Source: a bacterium (GTDB taxonomy: Bacteria > Bacillota > Clostridia > Oscillospirales > CAG-382). From it: a DNA stretch of 64,000 nt. Location: positions 69,674-133,673 of the forward strand of contig CAVLDN010000002.1 of assembly GCA_963661975.1 (NCBI GenBank), given 5' to 3'. The number at the start of each line of letters is the position of its first letter. Positions within the stretch are counted from its first letter, which is position 1. A model generated the notes under the pieces. That model searched no databases and was not told the DNA's origin. It saw nothing but the letters and a program-made list of their open reading frames with translations. The translations under genes and the position numbers were made by a program. Positions 12,353 through 17,245 of this stretch are shown here, in pieces.

Positions 12353-12421
12353 AAAAAACTCCTTTTCGGCGCGATCGAAGTATTATACCGCATTTTCGGT
12401 GAAAACTCAACAGAAAAAAGC

Positions 12422-12446
12422 AAAAAGCCCCGTACAGGGGCTTTTT
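12422..12446 (-). terminator. intrinsic terminator downstream of the DUF2828 gene
   Basis: aaaaagcccc-gtaca-ggggcttttt hairpin flanked by A/T runs on both sides. Confidence 0.7.
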
Positions 12447-12485
12447 CGCGGTTATTATTCGCCTTGTTCTTTGTTTTCCGCCGAT

Positions 12486-13949
12486 CTACGCCGATATTTC
12501 GGAATAGCGTTCGCTTTCAAGCACCTCGCGCATGAACGCAAGGGGCGAAAGCACCCCACCCGCGATCATGGAGAAGATACGCGGAGTAGCGCCCGAAACC
12601 AACGCGACACCCTGCTCGTTCTGCGTGACGGGCTGTTGGCGGTTTCTGCTTGCGACATTCCAGAAAACCACCTGCGGCAGCCTGTACCCGCGGGCTTCGA
12701 ACTTTCTGCGGGCGTTTTCAAAAACGGTATCGTCTGCTTTTTCGACACAGCAATTGAATTCCATGTCGGAAATAATGACCAGCTTTGCGGGGAGCTCGCT
12801 CTGCGGGACATTGTTCTCCGCCGCCGCATCCAAAATCAGATCAAAGACCGCCTCGAGGTTCGTGTCGGCGACTTCTTCAAAGGTCATTGCATAGCGAAGC
12901 CGCTCGGCAAAGGTATCGCCCTCAAGACGGATAAGCTGCGGGCGTTCGGAAAACTCGATAAAGCAGTTTGCAAACGCGCCCTTATTGTGCTCTGCAAAAT
13001 ACAGCCCGAGTGAGAGCGCGACCGCCGCGGGCGTGGGCTGCGGAAAGCAGTACATGGAGCCCGAGGTGTCGATAACAGCAAGTGCGTTTTCATCGCTTCC
13101 GTAATCCGGCAGGGAAGCCCATGTCGCGTTGATCGCCGCCTCATCTTCAGGCTTAATGCAGCCTCTGTCGATGATATAGGGGTCCACCAGCTCATACGGG
13201 GCGACATTGTCGGCGTGAAGCACCGCTTTGCCGGAGGCCGCTGCGCTCAAAAATGCTTTGTAACGCTCGCCGTCGTTGCGGCGAAAAGCCTTTTTGTACT
13301 TGAACAGTGCTCTTGAGGGCTGCTTTTCGTAATCGAAGGTGTAATTTCTTTCGCGCAGATTGTTTTCGATAATGCGTATTTTTGCCCGAAGCGCGGAAAG
13401 CGTCCTTCGGTAATCCGCCTGCGAAATCCCGAGCGTTCTTGCAATTTTTTTTCCGTTTGCCGCGGCTACTGCGGATGTTGCGTTTACGGAGGGCAGCCAT
13501 TTCGCAAGGAGTGAAACGGAGCCGCCGTTTTTCAGGGCTTCGGTATCGGCGATAAAACGATCCTTTATAAAGGAAAGCATTATACTTTCGCACGGGGTGT
13601 CCAAAAGCGAAAGAAGATCGTCGAATCTGCCGTATTCGGCAATATATTCAAGGTTTTTGAGCACGGAGAACGGCGAGTATTCGGCAAGGTAGCCGAGTAT
13701 AACGCGGAATATCCGCCTTTCACCCAAGCCGCCGCGCACATCTCTTGCAAAAAAGAGCAGCTTCATGGCGGCATCGGGGTTTTCGGTATAAGCGCGCACA
13801 AATCTTGTGATGATCTCGACATCGCTTTCGCGGCGAAGCCCGCCGACCGTTGCAAAAAAATCAAGGCAGCGGGAATTTGTCGAGGCATACGCCGCGGCGC
13901 CGTTTTCGGTCCTTGTCATATTTGCTTTTCGGCTGATGTATTCAAGCAT
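12486..13949 (-). CDS. DUF2828-like protein with C-terminal vWA/MIDAS domain (Ro60-like two-part layout)
   Basis: ORF 12486..14009 trimmed to ATG 13949, which sits behind an AAAGGAG SD. N-terminal motifs TENGAAAYASTNSRCLDFFATVGGLR and FFARDVRGGLGERRIFR. C-terminal half has LAVIDTSGSM (DxSxS MIDAS). The family name is assigned from memory of these motifs, not from a search. Confidence 0.8.
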   Translation of the reverse strand: MLEYISRKANMTRTENGAAAYASTNSRCLDFFATVGGLRRESDVEIITRFVRAYTENPDAAMKLLFFARDVRGGLGERRIFRVILGYLAEYSPFSVLKNLEYIAEYGRFDDLLSLLDTPCESIMLSFIKDRFIADTEALKNGGSVSLLAKWLPSVNATSAVAAANGKKIARTLGISQADYRRTLSALRAKIRIIENNLRERNYTFDYEKQPSRALFKYKKAFRRNDGERYKAFLSAAASGKAVLHADNVAPYELVDPYIIDRGCIKPEDEAAINATWASLPDYGSDENALAVIDTSGSMYCFPQPTPAAVALSLGLYFAEHNKGAFANCFIEFSERPQLIRLEGDTFAERLRYAMTFEEVADTNLEAVFDLILDAAAENNVPQSELPAKLVIISDMEFNCCVEKADDTVFENARRKFEARGYRLPQVVFWNVASRNRQQPVTQNEQGVALVSGATPRIFSMIAGGVLSPLAFMREVLESERYSEISA

Positions 13950-14009
13950 GAAGTTCACTCCTTTTCTTTTTCCGCATTTAATCCGAGTTCGGCGGAGACC
14001 GCAAAGCAC

Positions 14010-14484
14010 TTTAGAAATTTCATATATTTATCTAAAAAGCTTGCTGTTCGTGCTTTTTGCCGCATGCCATTGAGCGCGGCGCGGCACCTTCTTCTGCCGT
14101 GGGTAAATCCCCCGGGGCAGTTGAGGTGTACCGCACTGCCATGTTTCCGCCGGGCTGCTTTGCCCGTACGGGATCAGGCGGGTTTATACGCTCGTCCGCA
14201 CCTGTATGTGCGGGGGCGGCTCGGGGTATTCCTCCTCCCCGCCAAGTCCGGGCGTATACGTCCTTCCGCGCTCACATGCGGCAGATCTCCGCCGCAAGGC
14301 CCGTTTTGCAAAGCGGCTCGCCGTGTTCGCCAGTCCGACACGCGCCGGGGTACTTTACCTCGAACGGGCTCGGGCTTGACGCGGCAGCCAATGTTTATGC
14401 TGTTCGGATTGCTGTGCGGGCCTTTCTGAATCCCATTATAGCGGGGCGGGGGAGCGTTATCACGGAAAAAAAGTTGCGAACGGG
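14010..14484. ncRNA. candidate large structured RNA or structured leader (no family recognised)
   Basis: ~475-bp GC-rich gap. The only ORFs are Arg/Pro/Gly-rich and not protein-like. It contains many stable, nested and mutually exclusive helices (see findings). Minus strand: GTGATA-17-TATAAT promoter-like element at 14463-14435. Plus strand: would end at the 14473-14504 terminator. Strand is unresolved. Confidence 0.45.
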
Positions 14485-14505
14485 TTAATGTTCGCAACTT
14501 TTTTG
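14466..14505. terminator. bidirectional intrinsic terminator; the loop contains the WYL-B stop codon
   Basis: gttgcgaac (14473-14481) / gttcgcaac (14490-14498), with an A-run upstream and a T-run downstream. TAA of the 14485.. CDS lies in the loop. Confidence 0.75.
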
Positions 14506-15396
14506 GTTTTGCAGTCTTTGTTTTATCAAACCCACGAAGTGCTCCGGGGCGGTCACTTTGACCATCGGCCCGAACGAAAGGATACGGATCAGTATCTCGA
14601 TCTCATCGTCCTTGTCGTAGGATACGGTGACCTTGTATTTGCCGCCGTCAAGCCGCTCCGCCTGCTTTTCAAAGTGGGCAAAATGCAGCAGAACACGCTC
14701 CACGGCGTTCCTGCGGTCATACAGCTCAAATTCCACCGACCGCATCCTCGGGCGGACTTTCCTGCCCCGGGCGGCTTCAAACGGCTCGCCAAAGGGTGTG
14801 CATTCGGTTATTCGGGCAAGATTCACCGTTCTGCTCTGCGAACGACCTCTGCCGATAAGGCGGAATTTATCGTCCTTTTCGGAATATTCGAGCCGCTCCG
14901 GCAGGATGACGGTGCTTCTGATGCGTCCTTCACGGTCTGCGGTACGGATGCTCAGCGGCGTCTGCTCCTTTACGGCGGAAAGTATCGTGCGGAAATTCTT
15001 TATATACGCCTCCGCGTCGAAGGGATCGCCGTCGGAATATTTGTCGAATACCGAAACATCCTCCGGCTTAAAGAGCGGGGCAATGTCCGGGAATCCGATC
15101 TTTTCATCGGTGAAAAGCTTTATCCTCGGATCGTCGGCTATGGCGTTTATCCACCGCTTTTCAAGCAGTGTCAGCGGCATTTCCGGTGCGTGCTTCAAGG
15201 GGGTGGAGCCGTCCGCGCGGAGAAGCTGCCAACGCTCCTCCTCAAAAGCCGGCGCGATATTCAGAATACTTTCGCCGAACGCATTCTTTTCGATAATATC
15301 CCGCAACTCGCCTTTGCACAGGGGCTGCTTCACCGCGGCGGCAAGTATTTCGGCGACGGTGGAGTAATACACGCTGTAAAGCTCACTGAAAATCAT
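14485..15396 (-). CDS. WYL domain-containing protein (regulator, WYL + WCX-like C-terminus)
   Basis: ORF 14485..15432 trimmed to ATG 15396, behind a GAGGAGGG SD. WYL-like beta segment VILPERLEYSEKDDKFRLIG. The C-terminal ILSFGPMVKVTAPEHF is typical of the WYL C-terminal extension. Confidence 0.75.
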   Translation of the reverse strand: MIFSELYSVYYSTVAEILAAAVKQPLCKGELRDIIEKNAFGESILNIAPAFEEERWQLLRADGSTPLKHAPEMPLTLLEKRWINAIADDPRIKLFTDEKIGFPDIAPLFKPEDVSVFDKYSDGDPFDAEAYIKNFRTILSAVKEQTPLSIRTADREGRIRSTVILPERLEYSEKDDKFRLIGRGRSQSRTVNLARITECTPFGEPFEAARGRKVRPRMRSVEFELYDRRNAVERVLLHFAHFEKQAERLDGGKYKVTVSYDKDDEIEILIRILSFGPMVKVTAPEHFVGLIKQRLQNQKSCEH

Positions 15397-16639: not shown

Positions 16640-16667
16640 GTGATCACCTCCGCAGGCAGTGTTTTCA

Positions 16668-16698
16668 GGCTGTCGGCAGCGAGCCGCTGCCGACAGCC
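16668..16698. repeat. perfect 13-bp inverted repeat upstream of the WYL-A RBS
   Basis: ggctgtcggcagc (16668-16680), gagcc, gctgccgacagcc (16686-16698). Confidence 0.8.
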
Positions 16699-16704
16699 GT
16701 TTCG

Positions 16705-17100
16705 TTAACTTCGCGCGGGGTGATGTCTTACTTTTCGTTCCGGCTCAAAACATATTTCAGCATGGAAAAGGCCGCGGTTTTTTTGCTTCCTTTTTGGACG
16801 AAGCCTCTTTTTGCGGCTTTTGCCGATTTCCGCAATACGGCATTCGGCTTTCCACACCGGGTTGCCGCTTTCATCACGGGATTGCTCGAATGTATATGTC
16901 GGGATCGAAAAATACCCTCTGCGCGCCAATATTTCCAATTGATTTATTGCTTCATCTCTGTTCGGGTTTTCTATTTCGTTCGTTATCGTAAAGAGCAGGT
17001 TGTTGTTTTTCGGCCAGTCATAAGCAAGCTTGCAGACATCTCTCCGCGCCTCGCTTTTGCTCCTGCCGTAACTCTTAAACAGGGGTACATCGTCGGATAA
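16705..17100 (-). pseudogene. remnant of a double-stranded-RNA-binding-domain (dsRBD) protein, N-terminally truncated and frameshifted
   Basis: No usable start or SD. YGRSKSEARRDVCKLAY resembles the end of a dsRBD. AINQLEILARRGYFSIPTYTFEQSRDESGNPVWKAECRI resembles alpha1-beta1-beta2 of a second dsRBD. The expected G-SKK-helix end (KGSKKTAAFSMLKYVLSRNEK*) appears only in the +1 frame after the A-run at 16818-16821. Confidence 0.4.
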
Positions 17101-17136
17101 AAAATGAAAAAGCACTCGCACGCAGGGAGGACTTGA

Positions 17137-17168
17137 CAGAAAAACGGCAGGTTTTCCTGCCGTTTTTC
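17137..17168 (-). terminator. intrinsic terminator immediately 3' of tRNA-Pro
   Basis: 15-bp stem cagaaaaacggcagg / cctgccgtttttctg with a tttt loop. Confidence 0.7.
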
Positions 17169-17245
17169 TGGTCGGAGTGAGAGGATTTGAACCTCCGGCC
17201 TCTTGGTCCCGAACCAAGCGCTCTACCAAGCTGAGCCACACCCCG
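17169..17245 (-). tRNA. tRNA-Pro (anticodon CGG)
   Basis: Reverse complement CGGGGTGTGGCTCAGCTTGGTAGAGCGCTTGGTTCGGGACCAAGAGGCCGGAGGTTCAAATCCTCTCACTCCGACCA. It has a 7-bp acceptor stem, anticodon loop TTCGGGA, T-loop GGTTCAAATCC and an encoded CCA. Confidence 0.95.

What the first reader, a model, noticed from the sequence alone, without database searches (positions are those of the whole stretch)
12421..17245. Candidate RNA-protein module beside tRNA-Pro: DUF2828 (vWA/MIDAS, Ro60-like layout) protein, long structured non-coding region, and two WYL regulators
Seen in the sequence: one co-linear minus-strand block. It runs WYL-A (16639 to 15383), WYL-B (15396 to 14485, 14-nt overlap), a hairpin terminator, and a ~475-bp GC-rich ORF-free region full of helices. 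The DUF2828-like gene (13949 to 12486) and its own terminator (12422-12446) follow. The block is bounded by tRNA-Pro plus a decayed dsRBD gene on one side and an unrelated MATE pump on the other. The 488-aa protein has a conserved N-terminal module (TENGAAAYAST..LDFF, FFARDVRGGLGERRIFR) and a C-terminal vWA domain with a DxSxS MIDAS (VIDTSGSM). Established knowledge: Ro60/Rsr has the same two-part layout (TROVE + vWA/MIDAS). In Deinococcus and Salmonella it is encoded next to its Y-RNA ligand. WYL domains are ligand-sensing regulators of damage or defence regulons (PafBC, DriD, BrxR, CapW, the Cas13d accessory WYL1). Inference: this may be an inducible RNP system, in which a Ro-like protein binds a cognate structured RNA under control of a heteromeric WYL sensor. 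I know of no description of DUF2828 proteins with a cognate RNA or WYL control.
Basis: partly seen in the sequence, partly recalled or inferred. Interest (0 to 1): 0.8.

Follow-up and report, generated by a model that had tools for sequence, protein, structure and literature searches.

The report
Ro-like protein with Y-like RNA array
The "non-coding spacer" holds a conserved regulated promoter followed by small structured RNA modules, and these always accompany this Ro60-like (DUF2828) protein in gut Clostridia and in hundreds of phages, so it looks like a previously unmodelled branch of the Ro/Y-RNA RNA-repair system.

Summary

**Protein.** It has no sequence match to TROVE. Its AlphaFold model finds only Ro60 structures as top PDB hits, led by Thermus phage Ro60 (9KOP).

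**Spacer.** It is not one long RNA. It holds:
- a promoter element, TTCGCARC-T7-CCGTGA-N17-TAnAAT, nearly invariant across ~60 loci;
- two "clamp" modules: a 7-8 bp closing stem, unpaired ACAGCAA, variable interior, then stem'-G;
- a 236-nt closed domain between them.

**Modules elsewhere.** Related loci carry 1-10 modules: 289 on the gene strand against 8 opposite. The stems covary, and many interiors mimic tRNA. The same ACAGCAA modules flank DUF2828 genes in 76 of 80 viral contigs and in Felix-O1-like, P100-like, staphylococcal and mycobacterial phages.

**Neighbours.** The WYL pair is syntenic in about 58 of 80 loci. RtcB ligase adjoins DUF2828 in 56 of 80, but not in this window.

**Best reading.** This is a WYL-controlled Ro-like/Y-RNA-like RNP module of an RNA-repair regulon, analogous to Salmonella rsr-yrlBA-rtcBA. 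It is a new variant of a known kind. RNA binding, processing and induction are untested.

The parts
15383..16639 (-). WYL-A: regulator with a PaaX-like winged helix, a WYL domain and a weak WCX
   Evidence: ORF. Pfam WYL in 22/22 homologues (best 2.7e-8) and PaaX-like wHTH in 8/22. PADLOC WYL 9e-12. Syntenic upstream of DUF2828 in about 55 loci.
14485..15396 (-). WYL-B: partner protein with a WCX domain and a weak WYL-like core. It overlaps WYL-A by 14 nt.
   Evidence: WCX in 21/23 homologues (best 2.3e-6). PADLOC WYL 3e-10. hhalign aligns its core to the WYL region of WYL-A only weakly (E 0.01). Present in 58-59 loci.
14468..14503 (-). Inverted repeat AAAAAGTTGCGAAC-N8-GTTCGCAACTTTTT. The 5' arm lies in the last WYL-B codons. 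The 3' arm is part of the promoter element. It probably terminates the WYL operon.
   Evidence: Sequence. Conserved with C-G/T-A covariation (GCTGCG..CGCAGC versus GTTGCG..CGCAAC) across loci.
14435..14480 (-). Conserved promoter/operator P: TTCGCAACTTTTTTTCCGTGA (14480-14460), overlapping a -35-like GTGATA (14463-14458), then 17 nt and TATAAT (14440-14435).
   Evidence: Exact match to the consensus. Expected by chance in the window 0.00. Promoter scan. Present with 0-2 mismatches at the same place in about 60 loci, and also without the hairpin partner and in front of other genes.
14295..14425 (-). Clamp module 1 (131 nt): AAGGCCCG-C-ACAGCAA ... CGGGCCTT-G
   Evidence: Module finder. Fold. It sits at the same position (first element after P) and has the same clamp as modules in other loci.
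14059..14294 (-). Closed multi-branch 'middle' domain (236 nt, predicted -118 kcal/mol) without the canonical clamp. This is the GC-rich part.
   Evidence: Fold. Partial alignment to a recurrent 141-155-nt element at the same position in L002, L005, L007, L014, L063 and L085. Homology is probable but not proven.
14002..14058 (-). Clamp module 2 (57 nt, short): AAAGCAC-GA-ACAGCAA ... GTGCTTT-G, the last element before the ribosome-binding site
   Evidence: The pattern AARRYRCNNNCAGCAA matches once in 64 kb (expected 0.06). Equivalent short AAAGCAC modules precede the RBS in L002, L005, L006, L007, L014, L063 and L085.
12486..13949 (-). DUF2828+DUF7788 protein (487 aa): Ro60-like helical-repeat N-terminal part plus a vWA domain with a DxSxS MIDAS motif
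   Evidence: Pfam. AlphaFold model with pLDDT 70.9. Foldseek top 7 hits are all Ro60/TROVE: 9KOP E 1.9e-6, TM 0.51/0.53. MIDAS residues invariant. vWA_Ro60 is a weak hit in 9/33 homologues.
12422..12446 (-). Intrinsic terminator that ends the transcription unit. No RtcB follows in this genome.
   Evidence: Terminator scan. tblastn with RtcB finds nothing in the window.

Best explanation
The block is a compact member of a widespread RNA-damage-response module.

**Proposed mechanism**
- Two WYL-family proteins, WYL-A and WYL-B, probably act together. They control a dedicated promoter whose upstream element TTCGCARC-T7-CCGTGA overlaps the -35 region.
- That promoter drives one transcript. It starts with an array of small structured RNAs and ends with the gene for a Ro60-like ring protein of the DUF2828 family.
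- Each RNA module has the Y-RNA layout. Its 5' and 3' ends pair in a 7-8 bp clamp. An invariant unpaired ACAGCAA sits on the 5' side. The variable interior is often a tRNA mimic.
- I infer that the modules are cut out of the leader, as YrlA and YrlB are cut out of the Salmonella rsr-yrlBA-rtcBA transcript.
- I infer that the Ro-like protein binds the clamp and ACAGCAA. The interior domains would then tether or gate it towards tRNA-handling or RNA-repair enzymes. In most relatives RtcB ligase is encoded next door.

**Shown here:** the fold resemblance, the conserved promoter, the strand-specific covarying modules, their linkage to the protein across bacteria and phages, and the WYL and RtcB synteny.

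**Inferred:** transcription start, processing, protein-RNA binding, the signal sensed by the WYL pair (probably damaged RNA ends), and whether the pair activates or represses.
For: **Protein**
- The seven best PDB matches of the model are all Ro60/TROVE: 9KOP, 2NVO, 2I91, 9NEP, 9L5Y, 1YVR and 9NFA.
- The MIDAS residues are invariant.
- vWA_Ro60 is the only specific vWA family besides generic ones.
- Phage homologues are annotated 'Ro-like RNA binding protein'.

**RNA, sequence-only anchors**
- The 5' anchor occurs 318 times on the gene strand against 14 on the other. Stem positions pair in 0.90-0.97 of cases against 0.67-0.89 in partner shuffles.
- Stem-checked modules number 289 against 8. 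Nearly all lie between P and the start codon.

**RNA, tRNA-like class**
- 22 pairs are predicted and 16 have compensatory changes.
- 95.2% of cells pair against 82% in shuffles (0/500) and 37-45% when the 3' partners are slid.
- The Rfam tRNA model hits inside modules.

**Linkage beyond Clostridia**
- In 80 viral loci ACAGCRA occurs 562 times against 72. Closed units number 220 against 8. 76 of 80 loci have a unit within 1.5 kb of the gene.
- Explicit modules are seen in mycobacteriophage Tourach, Listeria LMTA-94, a Felixounavirus and a Staphylococcus phage. The stems differ by lineage while ACAGCAA is constant.
- The Tourach module is weakly hit by Rfam YrlA.

**Regulation**
- P is exact in the window and present in essentially every locus that has WYL-B.
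- It recurs in front of WYL-A (L025, L067), RtcB (L030), and a second tRNA-like RNA with Band_7 and RtcB.

**Context**
- RtcB adjoins DUF2828 in 56 of 80 loci. RlaP, Macro, ADP-ribosylglycohydrolase, and Thg1 with an AAA_33 kinase-like gene are nearby.

**Precedents**
- Y-like RNAs encoded beside Ro60 in bacteria and phages (PMC4201824, PMC12135203).
- The rsr-yrlBA-rtcBA operon induced by damaged tRNA (PMC7790460).
Against: - There are no expression, end-mapping or binding data of any kind.
- The protein model is of moderate quality (pLDDT 70.9, pTM 0.56, TM about 0.5). TROVE is not detectable by sequence.
- No Rfam Y_RNA or YrlA match reaches threshold. The conserved loop motif (ACAGCAA) differs from the GNCGAA/CGAA motif of known Y-like RNAs.
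- No terminator separates the modules from the coding region, so they could act in cis as a leader.
- In the window itself neither module interior is demonstrably tRNA-like. The 236-nt middle domain is only tentatively related to elements elsewhere. RtcB is absent.
- The G-U versus A-C mismatch count did not favour RNA over DNA. It is confounded by mis-paired anchors.
- No HTH was found in WYL-B, and heteromer formation is an inference from the gene overlap.
Confidence: 0.65

Rival explanations
1. The array is a cis-acting 5' leader rather than a source of trans-acting RNAs. The Ro-like protein, or a tRNA-related factor, binds the clamps in its own mRNA to control stability or translation (autoregulation). 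The last short module next to the RBS would be the control point.
For: There is no terminator between module 2 and the start codon. The short AAAGCAC module sits directly before the RBS in many loci. The modules are mostly upstream of the gene in Clostridia.
Against: In mycobacterial, staphylococcal and Felix-O1-like phages the modules lie downstream of the gene or inside tRNA clusters. Copy number varies from 1 to 10 with very diverse interiors. This is unlike a leader and like Y RNAs. The Salmonella precedent shows that co-transcription does not exclude processing (PMC7790460). The two roles are not mutually exclusive.
Confidence: 0.15
2. The repeats act at the DNA level, for example as binding sites for the WYL proteins or another DNA-binding protein, or as REP/MITE-like repeats. 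The inverted repeats would then be DNA palindromes, not RNA helices.
For: The promoter element P is clearly a DNA signal. The G-U versus A-C tally gave no RNA-specific bias.
Against: The orientation bias relative to the gene is extreme: 289 against 8, and 220 against 8 in viruses. The conserved ACAGCAA is asymmetric. The interiors fold as tRNA-like cloverleaf parts with covariation. The modules occur in phages that lack the WYL pair and P.
Confidence: 0.05
3. The window's spacer is mostly non-functional: decayed tRNA genes and GC-rich junk between a regulator operon and a separate DUF2828 gene.
For: The GC-rich 236-nt body has no blastn match in 80 loci. Spacer length is highly variable. RtcB has been lost from this locus.
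Against: The promoter and both clamps are intact and match the family consensus exactly. All three ORFs are intact. The fold z-score is -4.15. The middle domain shares short conserved blocks with elements at the same position elsewhere.
Confidence: 0.05

Closest known systems
Salmonella Typhimurium rsr-yrlBA-rtcBA RNA-repair operon under RtcR (PMC7790460, PMC4201824)
   Same: A Ro-type ring protein gene, Y-like RNAs (one a tRNA mimic) and RtcB ligase lie on one strand in one regulated unit. A dedicated ligand-sensing regulator is encoded alongside. The RNAs are co-transcribed with the protein genes.
   Different: The regulator here is a pair of WYL proteins with a sigma-70-type promoter, not the CARF/sigma-54 activator RtcR. 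The protein is DUF2828, not sequence-detectable TROVE. There are 1-10 RNA modules, with ACAGCAA instead of GNCGAA. RtcA was not seen. The window has no RtcB.
Thermus phage phiLo Ro60 with Yrl1/Yrl2 (PDB 9KOP, 9L5Y; PMC12135203)
   Same: It is the best structural match of the model. It is a phage-encoded Ro60 homologue with two Y-like RNAs encoded just upstream. The RNAs have a terminal 5'-3' stem flanking an internal loop that carries a short conserved motif.
   Different: No sequence similarity is detectable by profile search. The motif there is CGAA. No WYL regulators or arrays are reported.
YrlA / bacterial Y RNAs (Rfam RF02553; Chen et al. 2014, PMC4201824)
   Same: They lie within a few kb of the Ro gene and on the same strand. 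They combine a terminal stem with a tRNA-like domain (D and T arms). Several can occur per locus.
   Different: The model does not match at threshold; the best score is 23 bits against a gathering score of 69, in phage Tourach. Most Clostridial modules keep the normal tRNA arm order (D, anticodon, T), whereas YrlA has T before D. Many modules have no tRNA-like part at all.
PafBC, the actinobacterial heterodimeric WYL activator (from my own knowledge of the family)
   Same: Two adjacent WYL-family genes. A regulon-type promoter has an asymmetric conserved element immediately upstream of, or replacing, the -35. It responds to nucleic-acid damage signals.
   Different: No detectable sequence relationship. 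WYL-B lacks a recognisable HTH. The ligand and the mode of action (activation or repression) are unknown. The regulon concerns RNA repair, not DNA repair.
'Ro-like RNA binding protein' of actinobacteriophages and DUF2828 proteins of Felix-O1-like, P100-like and other phages (GenBank annotations)
   Same: These are true homologues at 29-54% identity over the full length. They are flanked by the same ACAGCAA modules and are often embedded in phage tRNA clusters, with RtcB nearby.
   Different: They carry only an annotation label. I found no paper describing their RNAs. They have no WYL pair or P promoter.

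Membership tests
Ro60 / TROVE (Rsr) proteins | TROVE domain detectable by sequence (Pfam PF05731) or similarity to solved Ro60 sequences | tested here: not met
   No TROVE hit for the window protein or for 33 homologues, even at E<=1. Profile searches against PDB sequences find no Ro60.
Ro60 / TROVE (Rsr) proteins | Helical-repeat (HEAT) ring capped by a C-terminal vWA domain | tested here: met
   In the AlphaFold model (pLDDT 70.9) the top 7 Foldseek PDB hits are all Ro60, aligned over about 500 columns, with best E 1.9e-6 and TM 0.51/0.53. Ring closure itself cannot be judged at this model quality.
Ro60 / TROVE (Rsr) proteins | MIDAS motif (DxSxS) in the vWA domain | tested here: met
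   VIDTSGSM is present. D294, S296 and S298 are invariant in 33 bacterial and phage homologues. Pfam vWA_Ro60 is a weak hit in 9/33.
Ro60 / TROVE (Rsr) proteins | Binds Y RNA and misfolded RNA ends | not testable with these tools
   Needs RIP/CLIP or EMSA.
Y RNA / YrlA | Match to the Rfam Y_RNA or YrlA covariance models at gathering score | tested here: not met
   No hit in the window spacer at E<=10 or in 9 related loci. There is one sub-threshold YrlA hit in phage Tourach, 23.1 bits against 69.
Y RNA / YrlA | 5' and 3' ends pair in a stem that flanks an internal loop carrying a conserved protein-contact motif (GGUCCGA / GNCGAA / CGAA) | tested here: inconclusive
   The architecture is met: a covarying 7-8 bp terminal stem plus an invariant unpaired ACAGCAA. 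The motif sequence is different from the published ones (PMC4201824, PMC12135203).
Y RNA / YrlA | Encoded within a few kb of the Ro gene on the same strand | tested here: met
   In the window the modules lie 53-476 nt upstream of the start codon on the same strand. The same holds in 80 genome loci and in 76/80 viral loci.
Y RNA / YrlA | At least one RNA per locus with a tRNA-like domain | tested here: inconclusive
   Met in many relatives: tRNA model hits inside modules, covariation, and ARAGORN calls. Not shown for the window's two modules.
Rtc-type RNA-repair operon | RtcB ligase encoded in the same unit | tested here: not met
   It is absent from the 64-kb window. It is present next to DUF2828 in 56/80 related loci and in the closest relatives L083, L085 and L086.
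Rtc-type RNA-repair operon | RtcR (CARF plus sigma-54 activator) as regulator | tested here: not met
   The regulators are WYL/WCX proteins. The promoter is sigma-70-like.
PafBC-like paired WYL regulators | Two adjacent paralogous HTH-WYL-WCX genes | tested here: inconclusive
   WYL-A has PaaX-like wHTH (8/22), WYL (22/22) and WCX (2/22). WYL-B has WCX (21/23), WYL only weakly, and no HTH. hhalign of A against B is weak (E 0.01).
PafBC-like paired WYL regulators | Conserved asymmetric promoter motif shared by regulon members | tested here: met
   TTCGCARC-T7-CCGTGA-N17-TAnAAT is present in about 60 loci. It lies in front of the RNA array, WYL-A, RtcB, Band_7 units and unknown ORFs. Binding by the WYL pair is inferred, not shown.

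The most novel reading that the evidence does not exclude
The arrays are libraries of tRNA and anticodon-arm mimics, each held on a common handle (clamp plus ACAGCAA) for the Ro-like ring. They would work as decoys or damage sensors for tRNA-targeting nucleases in phage-bacterium conflicts. Cleaved mimics or tRNAs would be presented by the Ro-like protein to RtcB for re-ligation, and their fragments would feed back on the WYL sensor. Phages such as Felix O1 and P100 would carry the same device to protect their own tRNA sets. This would make DUF2828/ACAGCAA RNPs a general, modular anti-ribotoxin system. Its specificity would be written in the exchangeable RNA interiors.
Probability: 0.2. Interest if true: 0.85.

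Novelty: new variant of a known kind. Interest (0 to 1): 0.7.

Why it matters
**Reach.** Ro60 with Y RNA is a classic but functionally still puzzling RNP. In bacteria it has been studied in a handful of species. If the DUF2828 family is a second, sequence-divergent Ro lineage with its own RNA partners, the system extends to abundant gut Clostridia. It also extends to well-known experimental phages: 710 phage records encode a homologue, including Felix-O1-like, P100/A511-like, staphylococcal, enterococcal, campylobacter and mycobacterial phages.

**A testable handle.** The invariant ACAGCAA plus clamp gives a simple, testable protein-binding handle. It is also a search key for annotating hundreds of unannotated small RNAs.

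**Variable cargo.** The arrays hold up to ten modules with exchangeable, often tRNA-like interiors. This suggests that the RNA, not the protein, carries target specificity.

**Regulation.** The conserved WYL-dependent promoter defines a compact RNA-repair regulon: the Y-like array, the Ro-like protein, RtcB, a Band_7 unit with its own tRNA-like RNA, and the regulators themselves. This regulon could be used to find what signal WYL domains sense in RNA damage.

Tried and rejected
- **Rfam.** Scans of the window at gathering score and at E<=10 found no family in the spacer.
- **blastn of the spacer.** Against 80 loci, only the first ~25 nt (the promoter element) and the clamp ends match. The GC-rich body has no match.
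- **Hidden gene in the spacer.** The three mechanical ORFs have no conserved counterparts.
- **First module finder.** It was one base out of register and gave noise, 83 hits with no strand bias. It was corrected.
- **Sequence-level links to solved structures.** None for DUF2828 and none for WYL-B.
- **NCBIfam.** No hits for DUF2828 or WYL-A, and only a weak sub-threshold chance match for WYL-B.
- **PADLOC.** Only the generic WYL models hit, so this is not a catalogued defence system.
- **G-U versus A-C mismatch tally.** Intended to separate RNA from DNA, it was inconclusive.
- **Anticodon-loop tally.** Only 56/266 bacterial and 20/66 viral modules have such a hairpin. The anticodons are diverse, so there is no support yet for a specific target.
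- **Loose regex for the 'middle element'.** It was swamped by noise. Only six clear instances remain.
- **Papers not held.** Burroughs & Aravind 2016 and the 2020 Annual Review on bacterial Ro60 could not be read. Prior mention of DUF2828 there cannot be excluded.

Full report
**1. What is in the window**

The minus-strand block is as described.
- WYL-A is at 16639-15383. WYL-B is at 15396-14485, overlapping WYL-A by 14 nt.
- A 475-nt gap follows, then a 487-aa DUF2828+DUF7788 gene at 13949-12486 and a terminator at 12446-12422.
- tRNA-Pro(CGG) lies at 17245-17169. The window is part of a MAG contig (GCA_963638475.1) with ordinary chromosomal neighbours.
- Rfam finds nothing in the gap, even at E<=10. 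The gap nevertheless folds much better than shuffled sequence (z = -4.15).

**2. The protein is Ro60-like in fold, not in sequence**

- Pfam sees only DUF2828, DUF7788 and a faint generic vWA.
- Profile searches against PDB sequences find nothing.
- An AlphaFold model from 22 homologues has pLDDT 70.9 and pTM 0.56.
- Searched against the PDB, it returns Ro60/TROVE structures as its seven best matches over about 500 aligned columns. These are the Thermus phage phiLo Ro60 (9KOP, E 1.9e-6, TM 0.51/0.53; also 9L5Y), Deinococcus Rsr (2NVO) and Xenopus/human Ro60 (2I91, 1YVR, 9NEP, 9NFA).
- The MIDAS residues D294, S296 and S298 are invariant in 33 bacterial and phage homologues.
- Pfam's vWA_Ro60 model is a weak hit in 9 of them.
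- In GenBank, mycobacteriophage homologues (about 38% identical) are already labelled 'Ro-like RNA binding protein'.

**3. The spacer is a promoter plus an array of RNA modules**

I fetched 80 genome loci encoding relatives of the protein at 58-71% identity.
- The WYL-B to DUF2828 spacers range from 163 to 2707 nt and are not GC-rich in general.
- The only part of the window's spacer that blastn finds elsewhere is its first ~25 nt.

*The promoter element.* Reading the spacers side by side shows two things. The first is a nearly invariant element, TTCGCA[AG]C-T7-CCGTGA, followed after about 17 nt by TAnAAT.
- In the window it is exact, at 14480-14435. The chance expectation is 0.00.
- The element also occurs without that partner and in front of other genes. 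These are WYL-A itself (L025, L067), RtcB (L030), unknown ORFs, and a second tRNA-like RNA followed by Band_7 and RtcB.
- It therefore behaves as a regulon promoter/operator. It is present in essentially every locus that has the WYL pair.

*The modules.* The second feature is that the rest of each spacer is built of modules with a common frame. The frame is 5'-AAGRYRCN (stem), one or two bases, ACAGCAA, a variable interior of 20-150 nt, then NGYRYCTT (stem') and G.

**4. Evidence that the modules are real, oriented and structured**

- A sequence-only 5' anchor occurs 318 times on the DUF2828 strand and 14 times on the other.
- Paired with the next sequence-only 3' anchor, stem positions 3-7 are complementary in 90-97% of cases, against 67-89% when partners are shuffled. 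Position 8 pairs in 70% against 38%. GC/AT and CG/TA alternate.
- A stem-checked finder gives 289 modules against 8. There are 1-10 per locus, and nearly all lie between the promoter and the start codon.
- Many interiors are tRNA-like. The Rfam tRNA model hits inside modules, for example L003 466-527 at 52.9 bits matching model positions 5-66. ARAGORN calls several of them.
- An alignment of 27 such modules gives a consensus of clamp, D-like arm, anticodon-like arm and T arm. 16 of 22 pairs show compensatory changes.
- In that alignment 95.2% of cells pair, against 82% in column shuffles (0/500) and 37-45% when the 3' partners are slid.
- A 5-bp acceptor-like stem joins the tRNA-like body to the clamp through the ACAGCAA loop. 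I saw this by eye.

**5. Map of the window's leader**

- Module 1 is at 14425-14295: AAGGCCCG-C-ACAGCAA ... CGGGCCTT-G.
- A 236-nt closed multi-branch domain is at 14294-14059. It lacks the canonical clamp.
- Module 2 is at 14058-14002: AAAGCAC-GA-ACAGCAA ... GTGCTTT-G. The 5' pattern occurs once in 64 kb against 0.06 expected.
- The RBS and the ATG at 13949 follow.
It shares short blocks (TACCCCGAGCCGCCC, GTGCGGACGAGCG, CTCAATGG) with a 141-155-nt element at the same position in L002, L005, L007, L014, L063 and L085. I regard that homology as probable, not proven.

**6. The RNA-protein link holds far beyond this clade**

- 311 viral contigs encode relatives at 37-62% identity.
- In the 80 kept, ACAGCRA occurs 562 times on the gene strand against 72. 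Stem-closed units number 220 against 8. 76 of 80 loci have a unit within 1.5 kb of the gene.
- 710 annotated phage genomes encode a homologue.
- Mycobacteriophage Tourach has three modules just downstream of the gene, with the frame GGACNC-TA-ACAGCAA ... GNGTCC-AG. One has the T arm before the D arm and a sub-threshold Rfam YrlA hit.
- Listeria phage LMTA-94 has three modules just upstream, RtcB 1.3 kb downstream, and tRNA genes around.
- A Felixounavirus has two modules inside the tRNA cluster that follows the gene.
- A Staphylococcus phage has three modules downstream.
- The stem sequence differs by lineage while ACAGCAA is constant. This is what a protein-contact motif held in a structural frame would look like.
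- These phages lack the WYL pair and the promoter element. The RNA therefore goes with the protein, not with the regulators.

**7. Context**

- RtcB (Pfam 1.3e-54) adjoins DUF2828 in 56 of 80 loci, usually directly downstream of it (median offset 55 nt).
- RlaP, Macro, ADP-ribosylglycohydrolase, Band_7, and Thg1 with an AAA_33 kinase-like gene occur nearby.
- The window and some close relatives (L001, L002) have no adjacent RtcB, and none lies within the 64 kb.
- WYL-A homologues all carry WYL, and some carry a PaaX-like winged helix. WYL-B homologues carry WCX.

**8. Interpretation**

The closest described system is the Salmonella rsr-yrlBA-rtcBA operon. There a Ro60 orthologue, two Y-like RNAs (one a tRNA mimic) and RtcB are co-transcribed under a regulator that senses damaged tRNA (PMC7790460, PMC4201824).

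The closest structure is the phage phiLo Ro60. It binds two Y-like RNAs encoded just upstream of its gene. These RNAs are defined by a terminal stem flanking a loop with a CGAA motif (PMC12135203).

Comparative-genomic papers state that WYL and CARF regulators can sense RNA ends with cyclic phosphates and control RNA-repair genes (PMC7824862, PMC9503650).

The present system has the same logic with different parts:
- a DUF2828-type Ro-like protein;
- ACAGCAA-type modules, often in arrays;
- a WYL pair with a sigma-70-type regulon promoter.

I therefore read the window as a WYL-controlled Ro-like/Y-like RNP module of an RNA-repair regulon. Processing of the leader, binding of the clamp by the protein, the ligand of the WYL pair and the direction of regulation are all inferences.

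**9. Alternatives and limits**

- A purely cis-acting leader is possible, since no terminator lies between the modules and the gene. It fits poorly with downstream and tRNA-cluster locations in phages and with 1-10 diverse modules.
- A DNA-level role for the repeats is contradicted by the strand bias, by the tRNA-like covariation and by their presence without the WYL pair.
- The protein model is of moderate quality, and TROVE membership by sequence fails.
- No Rfam model matches.
- A tally of anticodon-like loops gave no clear target.
- I found no paper describing RNAs for DUF2828 proteins. Two key reviews were not available, so prior mention cannot be excluded.

**10. Verdict**

I class this as a new variant of a known kind: the Ro60/Y-RNA/RtcB RNA-repair module. 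The RNA family is apparently undescribed and phage-wide.

Noticed in passing
L073 8577-9093; also L057 8568, L070 8379, L015 2299, L045 1543: A second copy of the WYL-type promoter drives a different conserved tRNA-like RNA (CGGTGCGCGAGGAT.TTCCAAAG.GTATGCC ... GGTTCGAATCC T arm). A Band_7/SPFH gene and RtcB follow. This may be the 'tRNA-like molecule' linked to SPFH/Band-7 modules that I recall from the abstract of Burroughs & Aravind 2016, a paper I could not read.
   Followed up: partly
L040 3118-6860 and L052 1678-6889: In WYL-less Anaerovoracaceae/Mogibacterium loci the clamp modules and the DUF2828 gene sit at the end of arrays of 27-30 tRNA genes. This is the same layout as in Felix-O1-like phages (L290), where the DUF2828 gene is followed by about 20 tRNA genes.
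   Followed up: partly
L002 6745-6899, L005 6755-6908, L007 6177-6336, L014 2270-2425, L063 6748-6893, L085 2896-3051; window 14294-14059: A recurrent unclamped 'middle element' (GAAAATCACAYTG ... CTGAATTGCCG-hairpin-GCGGACGAAATCA ... CAATGAA) always lies between the last tRNA-like module and the final short AAAGCAC module. The window's GC-rich 236-nt domain may be an expanded version. No Rfam match.
   Followed up: partly
window 14485-14503 (last WYL-B codons) and the equivalent positions in about 50 loci: The C-terminal codons of WYL-B (..QKSCEH*) are the complement of the promoter element. One stretch therefore serves as coding sequence, as a terminator arm and as the palindrome partner of the operator. 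The peptide end is conserved accordingly.
   Followed up: partly
L012 5290-5361, L023 6789-6864, L026 6592-6667, L043 6796-6871, L055 1170-1245, L058 6771-6846; L013 912-987: Apparently genuine, unclamped tRNA genes are embedded between modules inside the arrays. They are mostly tRNA-Phe(GAA), and one is tRNA-Arg(TCT) at 73.5 bits.
   Followed up: no
It has only one tblastn match among the 80 loci (L058 11164-11409, 48% over 82 aa), far from the DUF2828 cluster. It is not part of the system.
   Followed up: partly
window 16668-16698: A 14-bp perfect GC-rich hairpin (GGCTGTCGGCAGCG AGC CGCTGCCGACAGCC) lies just upstream of the WYL-A start codon. It reads as a terminator-like site on the + strand. 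Its role is unknown: an insulator from the tRNA-Pro transcript, or a regulatory site.
   Followed up: no
window 27095-27226 (-): An FMN riboswitch (RF00050, 99.4 bits). It is unrelated to the finding.
   Followed up: no
L083 1-786: In one of the closest relatives a Thg1-like 3'-5' nucleotidyltransferase and an AAA_33 kinase-like gene lie immediately upstream of the WYL pair. RlaP follows RtcB. Together these form a fuller tRNA-repair set than in the window.
   Followed up: no
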